A stretch of 64,000 nt of DNA. Origin: a virus (Duplodnaviria > Heunggongvirae > Uroviricota > Caudoviricetes). Position numbers and translations under genes: made by a program. Where the stretch lies: IMG/VR virus record IMGVR_UViG_3300033075_001920; one strand, given 5' to 3'. The first letter of the stretch is position 1. Each line of letters starts with the position of its first letter. Under the pieces are notes generated by a model. It was given only the letters and a program-made list of their open reading frames with translations, did no database searches and was not told the origin of the DNA. This document shows positions 44,597 through 50,976 of the stretch, piece by piece.

Positions 44597-44602
44597 ATTT
44601 TG

Positions 44603-44675
44603 AGCCTAGTACTGGATTTGAACCAGTGTACACATGATTTTGCAGACCATGACCTAACCACTCGGACAACTAGGC
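44603..44675 (-). tRNA. trnC: tRNA-Cys (GCA)
   Basis: loop CTGCAAA. Confidence 0.9.
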
Positions 44676-44682
44676 TTTTATT

Positions 44683-44762
44683 TGCGGTTCAGTCTCCCTC
44701 CTAATTAGAAGTTGTAGGCGTGCACTAACGCCTCGTTATTCGGACATTTCCTACGCTGAACC
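44683..44762 (-). ncRNA. tRNA-sized structured element of unclear type
   Basis: closing stem GGTTCAG/CTGAACC, inner AGGCGT/ACGCCT hairpin. Confidence 0.4.
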
Positions 44763-44837
44763 TAGAGGGGGTGGCTTGCCGTTAGCCGATTGCCGTTTTC
44801 ACAGTTTACAGGATTCGAACCCGCATTTCCCCCAACG
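44763..44837 (-). ncRNA. circularly permuted tRNA-like element Y (opened at anticodon loop)
   Basis: 3' half (GGGGG-AAAT-T arm-acceptor), GAAA, then 5' half (acceptor-TC-D arm-CCCCC). Confidence 0.7.
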
Positions 44838-44913
44838 TGGCATAAGCAGGATTCGAACCTGCGCATTCCTGCTCCCAAAGCAGGTCGGAAAAACCGGACT
44901 TCCGTATTACGCC
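44838..44913 (-). tRNA. trnP: tRNA-Pro (TGG)
   Basis: loop TTTGGGA. Confidence 0.88.
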
Positions 44914-44933
44914 ATTTTTTTATATGTAAGAAC

Positions 44934-45010
44934 TCATAAGAGCATCGTCCTTCCATTAAACGATCACCCATTAAACGGGTGAGCCGGGGTTGAACCGACA
45001 TAATGCCTCG
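44934..45010 (-). ncRNA. circularly permuted tRNA-like element X (opened at anticodon loop)
   Basis: GGCAT-TAT-T arm-TCACCC, loop, GGGTGA-TC-D arm-G-ATGCT. Confidence 0.7.
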
Positions 45011-45085
45011 TACTCGGTGCGGGGATCGAACCCGCTGCAACAGGATGAAAACCTGCCGTTTTAACCTACCGTGAACTAACCGAGC
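45011..45085 (-). tRNA. trnE: tRNA-Glu (TTC)
   Basis: loop TTTTCAT. Confidence 0.88.
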
Positions 45086-45087
45086 AT

Positions 45088-45116
45088 AAAAAAACCCTGA
45101 TTGTTAGTCAGGGTTT
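45088..45116 (-). terminator. attenuator terminator of leftward tRNA operon
   Basis: AAAACCCTGA-ctaacaa-TCAGGGTTTT plus T-run immediately before tRNA-Glu. Confidence 0.85.
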
Positions 45117-46214: not shown

Positions 46215-46820
46215 TTAATGTATGTTTGGCAGTATATTCAACTCCGAGTATTCCTTTCCGAAATTTTCAATCGCAGCTTGATTATATGCCATTGCAGCAT
46301 CTTCCTCGTTTATAAAATAACCCAGATGCTTTTTAACGTAATCTAATTTTATATAAGCAGCCCATTTTTTTGCAAAATTACTCCAGCTAACTCCCTTGTA
46401 AACACTGGATGGCTCATCGCCGTTTGCTGTTTTGGGTTTCTTCTCCTTGTAATGTGCTTTACGATGATCAATGATTTCAATATTGTCTCGTCTTAAATTG
46501 AGCGGGTTTTTATCCTTATAATGGATAATAGATTTACCTTCAATATCCATCATTAATTTTGCTACCGGCGCAACAACCCTCTTACCTTGTTTTGAAATCC
46601 ACAATGCCATTACTATACCCCTCTTTTTATCAAAGAAGATTGCCTGCTGTCTTAAAATTTCATAATCTAAATCATCAAATTCAATGATTTTACCGCAGGT
46701 TGTTTTGACCCATCTGAATTGATTCGCAAATATCCGCATTGCTTTTATTGCATCATTTTTTGAGATATTTTCGGTTTTCTTTCCAAAAATGTCGTGCAAT
46801 ATTTCAATTTCGGTTTTCAT
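46215..46820 (-). CDS. HNH-AP2 homing-endonuclease-like protein
   Basis: IHYKDKNPLNLRRDNI (degenerate HNH) plus SSVYKGVSW...HLGYF..EEDAAMAYNQAA AP2 domain. Confidence 0.85.
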   Translation of the reverse strand: MKTEIEILHDIFGKKTENISKNDAIKAMRIFANQFRWVKTTCGKIIEFDDLDYEILRQQAIFFDKKRGIVMALWISKQGKRVVAPVAKLMMDIEGKSIIHYKDKNPLNLRRDNIEIIDHRKAHYKEKKPKTANGDEPSSVYKGVSWSNFAKKWAAYIKLDYVKKHLGYFINEEDAAMAYNQAAIENFGKEYSELNILPNIH

Positions 46821-50692: not shown

Positions 50693-50765
50693 GGGCCCGA
50701 AGCCAACGGCAGGCCGGCTGCTTTGCAAGCAGATCGTTTGGGTTCAACTCCCACGGTGTCCACCA
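50693..50765 (+). tRNA. trnA: tRNA-Ala (TGC)
   Basis: loop TTTGCAA, G3:U70, CCA. Confidence 0.85.
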
Positions 50766-50857: not shown

Positions 50858-50968
50858 GTAGTGGGTCGATCACCGGATATATCCATTCTTATGGTAAATG
50901 CTAGGTTCGAATCCTGCCGGCGGGTTGCCCTCTAAAATTGGAAGGGGAACCCGCCGTAGACTCACTAC
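50858..50968 (+). ncRNA. circularly permuted tRNA-like element Z (opened at D-loop)
   Basis: 10-bp GTAGTGGGTC/GACTCACTAC stem; TTCGAAT T-loop; CGGCGGG..CCCGCCG-TA acceptor. Confidence 0.6.
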
Positions 50969-50976
50969 TTTTTTAC

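What the first reader, a model, noticed from the sequence alone, without database searches (positions are those of the whole stretch)
44763..44837. Circularly permuted tRNA-like element Y directly behind tRNA-Pro
Minus strand reads cgtt-GGGGG-aaat-GCGGG ttcgaat CCTGT-aaactgt-GAAA-acggcaa-tc-GGCT aacggca AGCC-a-CCCCC-tcta. Every tRNA element has canonical length, but the 3' half comes first, the acceptor stem is capped by a GAAA tetraloop (only 4 bp pair), and the anticodon loop is open. Permuted tRNA genes are established in Cyanidioschyzon and Thermofilum. I know of none in phages. Inference: either matured by ligation, or a non-chargeable tRNA mimic or decoy for anticodon nucleases. The anticodon cannot be assigned.
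Basis: partly seen in the sequence, partly recalled or inferred. Interest (0 to 1): 0.8.

Follow-up and report, generated by a model that had tools for sequence, protein, structure and literature searches.

The report
Sealed, permuted tRNA mimic in phage
Behind the phage's proline tRNA gene sits a 70-base RNA that has all the parts of a tRNA in swapped order, with a closed amino-acid end and no anticodon; it is most likely a non-decoding tRNA look-alike of the kind already known from bacterial and phage Y RNAs (YrlA), not a new kind of tRNA gene.

Summary
On the minus strand, 44833-44767 folds as a four-way junction. The order is closing stem, 4-nt variable loop, T arm, sealed 7+7-nt acceptor-like hairpin with a GAAA cap (only 4 bp), UC, D arm, A, closing stem.

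Y is not alone. Element X behind tRNA-Glu has the same plan with a perfect 7-bp sealed stem. A model built from X finds the same architecture in many IMG/VR phage contigs, with covariation in all four helices. One of these sits beside a Ro60 gene and a weak Rfam YrlA match.

The topology is that of the published YrlA tRNA-like domain, described as a circularly permuted tRNA with a closed acceptor stem and reported in phages. This scan has also noted it repeatedly on other DNA.

Y differs from YrlA. It has no Ro60-binding handle and no Rfam hit, and I found no Ro60 gene in the 64 kb. It sits flush in a tRNA slot.

Y is the weaker copy: ARAGORN never calls the un-permuted form a tRNA, and I found no orthologue.

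I found no support for maturation into a decoding tRNA: no anticodon loop, no CCA, no ligase. Verdict: new variant of a known kind, modest interest.

The parts
44763..44837 (-). Element Y as flagged: sealed, circularly permuted tRNA-like module
   Evidence: Sequence. MFE is a four-way junction. Scores 39.9 bits with family model R2, which was trained without it.
44829..44833 (-). Closing stem, 5' strand GGGGG (position of the 3' strand of a tRNA anticodon stem)
   Evidence: Pairs with 44767-44771 at probability 0.93.
44825..44828 (-). AAAT, a variable-loop-like linker of 4 nt. Its last T can form the Levitt-type pair with the second A of the D loop.
   Evidence: Sequence; tRNA numbering by inference.
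44808..44824 (-). T arm: GCGGG / TTCGAAT / CCTGT (5 bp including two G-U pairs; canonical T loop; G53-C61 equivalent)
44790..44807 (-). Sealed acceptor-like hairpin: AAACTGT-GAAA-ACGGCAA. It has 7+7 nt, but only CTGT/ACGG pair, under a GNRA cap. No discriminator-CCA.
   Evidence: The three mismatches are flagged in the model alignment.
44788..44789 (-). TC linker in the position of U8-N9
   Evidence: Identical in X and in most family members.
44773..44787 (-). D arm: GGCT / AACGGCA / AGCC (A14, A15, GG and A21 equivalents present)
44767..44772 (-). A (position-26 equivalent) plus closing stem 3' strand CCCCC
44838..44913 (-). tRNA-Pro(TGG). Its discriminator lies 4 nt before Y's closing stem, so its 3' processing would set Y's 5' end (inferred).
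   Evidence: ARAGORN; Rfam 56.4 bits.
44936..45009 (-). Element X behind tRNA-Glu: same architecture, perfect 7-bp sealed acceptor stem, and a 7-8 bp closing stem with one bulge
   Evidence: The un-permuted form is called a tRNA by ARAGORN in 10 of 12 constructs. Model R1 built from X finds Y as its best non-self hit and finds IMG/VR elements at 20-42 bits.
44676..44762 (-). Stretch Z between Y and tRNA-Cys: a separate cloverleaf-shaped fold closed by a 7-bp stem (GGTTCAG/CTGAACC), with no tRNA-type loops. It would be released together with Y unless cut apart.
   Evidence: Fold z = -2.5. The fold is kept in the Y+Z and Pro+Y+Z contexts. No Rfam hit.

Best explanation
Y is a small non-decoding RNA module that imitates the body of a tRNA. 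It is made as part of the phage's Glu-to-Arg tRNA transcript.

Release (inferred): the cut that trims tRNA-Pro's 3' end frees Y's 5' end. The RNase P cut at tRNA-Cys, perhaps with a further cut in front of the Z fold, frees its 3' side.

Fold (inferred from sequence): the T loop and D loop keep the nucleotides that lock a tRNA elbow together, namely the U8, A14, G18-G19, A21, T54-psi55-C56 and A58 equivalents. The RNA can therefore adopt the L shape, as shown by crystallography for the same topology in YrlA.

What it cannot do: its acceptor end is closed by a GAAA loop and it has no anticodon arm, so it can neither be charged nor read a codon.

Most likely mode of action (inferred): it occupies a protein that recognises the upper half or core of tRNA. 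Candidates are a host Ro60-type protein, a tRNA-modifying or tRNA-processing enzyme, or a tRNA-cleaving defence nuclease that it would inhibit competitively.

Y is the more degenerate of two paralogous modules. X keeps a 7-bp stem that RNase P could open; Y probably stays sealed.
For: - Architecture and fold.
- Second copy X with the same plan: 39 identical columns, compensated differences in all stems, and the identical UC linker.
- A model from X alone retrieves Y first. It also retrieves stand-alone elements in IMG/VR phages at 20-42 bits, including copies not selected by my pattern.
- In that 16-row alignment, 94% of cells pair and 19 of 23 pairs show double changes. Slid controls give 37-53%. 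The alignment was fitted to the structure.
- Y scores 39.9 bits with the family model built without it.
- Link to Y RNAs: in L102 such an element lies next to a weak Rfam YrlA match (40.5 bits) and a TROVE + Ro60-vWA protein.
- An independent handle-less case flush between tRNA-Pro and tRNA-Phe occurs in L131, a provirus rated 100% complete that has no TROVE gene.
- No promoter-like or terminator-like site separates Y from the operon start.
- Published background: the YrlA domain order T - closed acceptor - D, modification by TruB and DusA, and RNase P cutting only with a 7-bp stem (PMC4201824); the L-shaped crystal structure (bioRxiv 10.1101/312249); the competitive-inhibitor idea (PMC7790460).
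Against: - No orthologue of Y could be found, so conservation of Y itself is untested. The nearest retrievable relative, L001, has tRNA-Pro behind the same kind of leader but no X- or Y-type module anywhere in its 170 kb.
- Y's sealed stem has three mismatches.
- Its pairing statistics are only mildly unusual against ordinary junctions, and its folding energy is not unusual.
- No partner protein is identified. I found no TROVE/Ro60 in the window by Pfam or by tblastn with two phage Ro60 proteins.
- There is no expression data.
Confidence: 0.55

Rival explanations
1. Y is a decaying, functionless relic. It would be a worn copy of an X-type module, or a scrambled tRNA left by rearrangement in a fast-changing tRNA array, carried along because it lies inside the operon.
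For: - Three mismatches in the acceptor hairpin.
- ARAGORN never accepts the un-permuted form, even at a 60% threshold, whereas X passes at default.
- Only 14.3 bits with the X-only model.
- Pairing features are only mildly above the junction null.
- Absent from the nearest relative.
- HNH homing endonucleases sit in these arrays and reshuffle them.
Against: - All four helices still pair with probability >=0.9.
- Every loop and linker keeps tRNA-type length, and all elbow nucleotides are kept.
- It fits exactly into a tRNA-sized slot with a 5/5 G-C closing stem.
- Its halves are not recent copies of any resident tRNA.
- GNRA-capped, imperfect sealed stems also occur in family members, for example L167, L102 and L090.
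Confidence: 0.27
2. Y and X are cis-acting processing or folding spacers. As tRNA-shaped modules they would recruit or position RNase P, RNase Z or the CCA-adding enzyme, or keep neighbouring tRNAs from mispairing, and have no function once released.
For: - Both modules start 1-4 nt after a tRNA discriminator and fill the gaps between tRNAs.
- Three consecutive independent cloverleaf folds are predicted for Pro-Y-Z.
- A 7-bp YrlA acceptor stem is an RNase P substrate (PMC4201824).
Against: - Most tRNAs of the same operon are packed 5-10 nt apart without such modules.
- The same architecture occurs away from tRNAs next to Ro60 genes, in L102 and L090, which argues for a trans-acting RNA.
Confidence: 0.1
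3. Y is a true circularly permuted tRNA gene. On this reading its ends are ligated to make an anticodon loop and its sealed acceptor is opened and given CCA, yielding a decoding tRNA.
For: - The gene order of the halves and the segment lengths match.
- The third acceptor pair is G-U, as in alanine tRNAs.
- Some related elements in other phages (L131, L150, L153, L193) carry ACCA right after the 3' acceptor strand.
Against: - No anticodon-loop sequence with U33 and a purine at 37 can be assembled from the flanks.
- No CCA or usable discriminator, and only 4 of 7 acceptor pairs.
- No bulge-helix-bulge motif, and bacteria are not known to have the splicing endonuclease (bioRxiv 10.1101/312249, discussion).
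- No ligase or end-healing enzyme found in the window.
- The phage already has a tRNA for every amino acid once the weak tRNA-Ala at 50693-50765 is counted.
Confidence: 0.04

Closest known systems
YrlA, the tRNA-like Y RNA of bacteria and phages (Rfam RF02553; Chen et al. 2014, PMC4201824; structure in bioRxiv 10.1101/312249)
   Same: - Same 5'-to-3' order: stem strand, variable region, T arm, closed acceptor stem-loop, 2 nt, D arm, stem strand.
- Same conserved elbow nucleotides.
- No free CCA and no anticodon loop.
- Described in print as resembling a circularly permuted tRNA with a closed acceptor stem.
- Found in phages.
   Different: - Y has only a 5-bp closing stem. It lacks the long Ro60-binding helix and the GNCGAA motif.
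- No Rfam YrlA hit even at E<=10.
- No Ro60/TROVE gene found in the 64 kb.
- It sits flush in a tRNA slot of a tRNA operon rather than next to rsr.
Phage small RNAs built on a stem plus (A)CAGCAA 'handle' with permuted tRNA interiors. These were noted repeatedly by this scan on other DNA (e1-1841663, e1-1835814, e1-5427507); I found no publication.
   Same: Same sealed, permuted tRNA interior. My IMG/VR hits L103, L139, L171, L150, L153 and L193 carry that handle around an X-like module, often inside tRNA arrays.
   Different: X and Y have no handle (and the sequence). Their closing stems abut neighbouring tRNAs directly. In my sample only L131 shares this handle-less, flush arrangement.
Circularly permuted tRNA genes of Cyanidioschyzon merolae (Soma et al. 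2007, as described in bioRxiv 10.1101/312249)
   Same: The 3' half is encoded before the 5' half. The acceptor ends are joined by a short linker, and the transcript ends lie in the anticodon region.
   Different: Those genes give real decoding tRNAs through a circular intermediate made by the splicing endonuclease and a ligase. Y has no anticodon loop, no bulge-helix-bulge motif, a weak acceptor stem and no CCA, and its un-permuted form fails tRNA detection.
mascRNA-type tRNA-like RNAs released from longer transcripts by RNase P and RNase Z (Wilusz et al. 2008, as cited in bioRxiv 10.1101/312249)
   Same: A non-decoding tRNA look-alike that is set free by the tRNA-processing enzymes.
   Different: mascRNA has normal tRNA strand order and open ends and is eukaryotic. 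Y is permuted and sealed.

Membership tests
YrlA (Rfam RF02553) | tRNA-like domain in the order T arm - closed acceptor stem-loop - D arm, with tRNA-type conserved loop nucleotides | tested here: met
   Sequence and fold. Model alignment. Order as described in PMC4201824 and bioRxiv 10.1101/312249.
YrlA (Rfam RF02553) | Ro60-binding module: a long helix formed by the RNA's 5' and 3' ends, carrying the GNCGAAN0-1G motif | tested here: not met
   The closing stem is only 5 bp and its flanks do not pair. No GNCGAA motif on either strand of 44600-45100.
YrlA (Rfam RF02553) | Score at or above the Rfam gathering threshold (69 bits) | tested here: not met
   No YrlA match on 44650-45100 even at E<=10. 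The same model does respond (40.5 bits) in the control locus L102 next to a Ro60 gene.
YrlA (Rfam RF02553) | Encoded next to a Ro60/Rsr (TROVE) gene | tested here: not met
   No TROVE in Pfam scans of the window ORFs. tblastn with two phage Ro60 proteins gives a best E of 0.53. The other ~68 kb of the 132-kb contig could not be searched.
Circularly permuted tRNA genes (Cyanidioschyzon type) | 3' half encoded upstream of the 5' half, with acceptor ends joined by a short linker | tested here: met
Circularly permuted tRNA genes (Cyanidioschyzon type) | Rotating the halves back gives a sequence that passes a tRNA detector | tested here: not met
   ARAGORN made no call for Y with native or generic anticodon loops at thresholds down to 60%. 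X passes at the default threshold.
Circularly permuted tRNA genes (Cyanidioschyzon type) | Anticodon loop recoverable by joining the transcript ends, with a processing motif (bulge-helix-bulge) at the junction | tested here: not met
   The flanks (CGTT upstream, TCTA downstream) give no U33/purine-37 loop in any split. No extended helix lies beyond the 5-bp stem.
Circularly permuted tRNA genes (Cyanidioschyzon type) | Circular intermediate and a mature charged tRNA | not testable with these tools
   Needs RNA from infected cells.
Phage 'handle' RNAs (stem + ACAGCAA) noted by this scan | Enclosing stem followed by the (A)CAGCAA motif | tested here: not met
   ACAGCAA does not occur between 44600 and 45100. 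The motif is present around the IMG/VR relatives of X.

The most novel reading that the evidence does not exclude
Handle-less sealed tRNA mimics such as X, Y and the L131 element would form a separate class. They would be cut out of phage tRNA operons by the tRNA-processing enzymes themselves and would act without a phage Ro60. Their role would be as competitive inhibitors of host tRNA-cleaving defence nucleases, or as baits that capture the host's own Ro60 or tRNA-binding proteins, produced together with the replacement tRNAs.
Probability: 0.2. Interest if true: 0.6.

Novelty: new variant of a known kind. Interest (0 to 1): 0.35.

Why it matters
Large phages carry tRNA sets partly to withstand host attacks on translation. 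If the sealed tRNA look-alikes that travel inside those tRNA operons are made and stable, they would be a second RNA-based layer of that contest: decoys rather than spares.

They would also show that the YrlA-type tRNA mimic can work without its Ro60-binding handle.

For annotation, the practical point is that such modules are invisible to tRNA finders and to Rfam, and they score like ordinary tRNA-tRNA junctions. They are recognised only by context and by their sealed stems.

For Y itself the value is limited. It is the weaker of two copies and has no retrievable orthologue.

Tried and rejected
1. Close relatives by DNA. megablast and blastn of the region against 50,697 phage records gave only a tRNA-Cys match. 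An exact 26-mer of Y in IMG/VR gave nothing.

2. Relatives by neighbouring proteins.
- The 971-aa and 376-aa proteins gave nothing in IMG/VR.
- The HNH endonuclease gave L001 in IMG/VR and L204-L207 in metagenomes. None of these carries X or Y.
The Logan/ENA contigs of up to 40 kb that hold HNH homologues of up to 75% identity (70% for the 40-kb contig) could therefore not be read.

3. The idea that Y is the phage's missing tRNA-Ala, based on its G3-U70-like pair. Dropped: a weak but complete tRNA-Ala(TGC) with G3-U70 and an encoded ACCA lies at 50693-50765.

4. The idea that Y is a recent copy of tRNA-Pro's 3' half. The best local alignment (score 31) is barely above those to other tRNAs (26-28).

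5. Using the covariance-model score as proof of membership. Rejected: ordinary tRNA-tRNA junctions reach 38-51 bits.

6. Relatives of the L131 element in the phage records. Only tRNA matches were found.

7. MAFFT alignment of X with Y was one column out of register in the acceptor region, so the models were built from X alone and then from model-guided alignments.

Full report
**What is there.**
The window is part of an uncultured large phage, on a 132-kb contig. No whole genome is held for it. ARAGORN finds 23 tRNAs and a tmRNA in three clusters.

On the minus strand one cluster reads tRNA-Glu, X, tRNA-Pro, Y, an 87-nt stretch Z, then Cys, Phe, Thr, Gln, His and Arg.

RNAfold gives this four-way junction as the minimum-energy and centroid structure. 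Pair probabilities are >=0.9 for Y alone or with Z, and >=0.71 with tRNA-Pro attached. In the Pro-Y-Z context three independent cloverleaf-shaped folds are predicted side by side.

**Is it more than chance?**
- The folding energy is unremarkable: z = -1.1.
- The architecture is not. Every linker has tRNA length: 4-nt variable loop, no gap between T stem and acceptor strand, 2 nt at positions 8-9, and 1 nt at position 26.
- The loops hold the nucleotides that build the tRNA elbow and core: the U8, A14, A15, G18-G19, A21, G53-C61, T54, T55, C56 and A58 equivalents.
- The weak point is the acceptor, where only the four pairs under the GAAA cap form.
- Rotating Y back into normal order, with native flanks or a generic anticodon loop, never gives an ARAGORN call, even at a 60% threshold.

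**The sibling X and the family.**
The same reader flagged X behind tRNA-Glu (e1-5429321). X has the same plan, with a perfect 7-bp sealed stem. Its un-permuted form is called a tRNA by ARAGORN at the default threshold in 10 of 12 constructs.

A covariance model made from X alone, run over the whole window without filters, finds Y as its best non-self hit. The margin is small: 14.3 bits against noise at 12.4.

A degenerate pattern shared by X and Y was scanned over IMG/VR.
- 99 were ordinary tRNA-tRNA junctions.
- 16 were cases where neither arm belongs to a called tRNA.

The X model scores these stand-alone elements at 20-42 bits. It also finds further copies in the same loci that the pattern had not selected.

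In the resulting 16-row alignment, 94% of cells pair and 19 of 23 pairs show changes on both sides. The sealed 7-bp stem is 95% paired with many different sequences. Slid controls give 37-53%. The alignment was fitted to the model, so this leans towards the structure, but the compensation is plain to the eye.

A family model built from that alignment, without Y, scores Y at 39.9 bits. That is far above the window's ordinary junctions, which reach at most 26.4 bits.

**A caveat that matters.**
With the same model, ordinary junctions between tightly packed tRNAs in other phages reach 38-51 bits. Chen et al. gave the same warning about dimeric tRNAs (PMC4201824). The score therefore shows only that Y is made of a tRNA-type 3' half followed by a tRNA-type 5' half.

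Against 89 distinct ordinary junctions:
- A canonical 5/5 closing stem occurs in 4.
- At least 4 of 7 complementary acceptor positions occur in 27.
- 7 of 7 occurs in none.

Y (5/5 and 4/7) is only mildly unusual on these counts. X (7/7) is clearly so.

What makes Y a unit of its own is context. A complete tRNA-Pro ends 4 nt before its closing stem. Z begins 4 nt after it. No T arm follows its D arm and no D arm precedes its T arm. Its halves are also not recent copies of any resident tRNA.

**What kind of thing it is.**
[quoted passage not shown] The published record on YrlA:
- It is the Y RNA partner of Ro60/Rsr, found near Ro60 in more than 250 bacterial and phage species (PMC4201824).
- YrlA is modified by TruB and DusA. 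The one YrlA with a 7-bp stem is cut by RNase P and receives CCA (PMC4201824).

My sample makes the link directly. In L102 an X-like element lies next to a weak Rfam YrlA match (40.5 bits against a threshold of 69) and directly upstream of a protein with TROVE and Ro60-vWA domains. L146's record also holds a TROVE gene.

Several other hits (L103, L139, L171, L150, L153, L193) are wrapped in a stem plus (A)CAGCAA. This is the 'handle' that earlier agents of this scan described on other phages (e1-1841663, e1-1835814, e1-5427507). The scan has therefore found this kind of element before, on other DNA.

**How Y differs.**
- Y and X have no handle.
- They have no GNCGAA motif.
- They have no Rfam YrlA match at E<=10.
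- No Ro60 gene appeared in the window by Pfam or by tblastn with two phage Ro60 proteins.
- They sit flush in tRNA slots.

In my sample only L131 is like this. That element lies between tRNA-Pro and tRNA-Phe with 2-nt gaps, in a provirus rated 100% complete that has no TROVE gene.

Y therefore fails membership of YrlA as defined, but it works like the YrlA tRNA-like domain.

**How it probably works.**
- Shown: the sequence, the predicted fold, the family resemblance, and the position inside the operon with no consensus promoter or terminator between the leader terminator (45117-45091) and Y.
- Inferred: transcription with the tRNAs; release by the 3' trimming of tRNA-Pro and by RNase P at tRNA-Cys, and perhaps a cut at Z; an L-shaped fold; and action by occupying a tRNA-recognising protein.
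- Y lacks an anticodon arm, so enzymes that read the elbow or the acceptor-T domain are more likely targets than anticodon-loop cutters.
- X, with its 7-bp stem, may be opened by RNase P. Y probably is not.

**Rivals.**
- Decaying relic. This cannot be dismissed, because I found no orthologue. The nearest relative, L001, has tRNA-Pro behind a similar leader but carries an HNH gene where Y would be. It has nothing above junction level in its 170 kb.
- Processing spacer. Possible but less likely, because the same architecture occurs away from tRNAs.
- True permuted tRNA matured by ligation. Poorly supported: no anticodon loop, no CCA, a weak acceptor stem, no ligase found, and a full tRNA set already present.

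**Limits.**
The other half of the phage genome could not be searched. There are no expression data.

Noticed in passing
window 44936-45009 (-): Element X behind tRNA-Glu is the better-preserved sealed, permuted tRNA mimic. It has a perfect 7-bp closed acceptor stem, and ARAGORN calls its un-permuted form a tRNA at the default threshold. It may be an RNase P substrate.
   Followed up: yes
window 44676-44762 (-): The stretch Z between Y and tRNA-Cys folds as its own cloverleaf, closed by a 7-bp stem (GGTTCAG/CTGAACC), z = -2.5. It lacks tRNA-type T and D loops and has no Rfam match. It contains GUCCGAA, which resembles the conserved 5' strand of metazoan Y RNAs (from memory); this may be coincidence.
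   Followed up: partly
window 50693-50765 (+): A weak tRNA-Ala(TGC) that ARAGORN misses (Rfam 24.8 bits, below the threshold of 29). It has G3-U70, A73 and an encoded CCA, but two mismatches in the acceptor stem and a 3-bp D stem. It completes the phage's set of 20 amino acids.
   Followed up: partly
window 50858-50976 (+): A strongly structured RNA (z = -5.6) closed by a 10-bp stem and followed by a T run. It contains a T arm with a TTCGAAT loop and a long inserted hairpin.
   Followed up: partly
window 46215-46820 (-): An HNH/AP2-type homing endonuclease lies between the tRNA clusters. A different HNH-like ORF sits directly behind tRNA-Pro in the relative L001 (13373-14116), where Y would be. 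This suggests that endonuclease-driven turnover reshapes these arrays.
   Followed up: partly
L131:2222-2292 (-), L150:759-839 (-), L153:3482-3560 (+), L193:12170-12255 (-): Some sealed modules in other phages carry ACCA directly after the 3' acceptor strand, inside the 'loop'. This is what a true permuted tRNA or a two-piece tRNA-like RNA would need. L131's module is flush between tRNA-Pro and tRNA-Phe.
   Followed up: partly
L103:6573-6646 (-), L139:3737-3809 (-), L146:3899-3967 (-): In these handle-bearing elements the D arm is followed by a complete anticodon-type hairpin. The order is therefore T arm, sealed acceptor, D arm, anticodon arm, which is a permutation opened in the variable region rather than in the anticodon loop.
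   Followed up: no
L102:7715-9383 (-): An IMG/VR contig has two tandem sealed tRNA-like RNAs directly upstream of a Ro60 (TROVE + Ro60-vWA) gene. One matches Rfam YrlA at 40.5 bits, below threshold.
   Followed up: yes
window 44838-44913 (-): tRNA-Pro(TGG) has an unusual D arm, predicted as a 6-bp stem with a 7-nt loop. It still scores 56 bits with the Rfam tRNA model.
   Followed up: no
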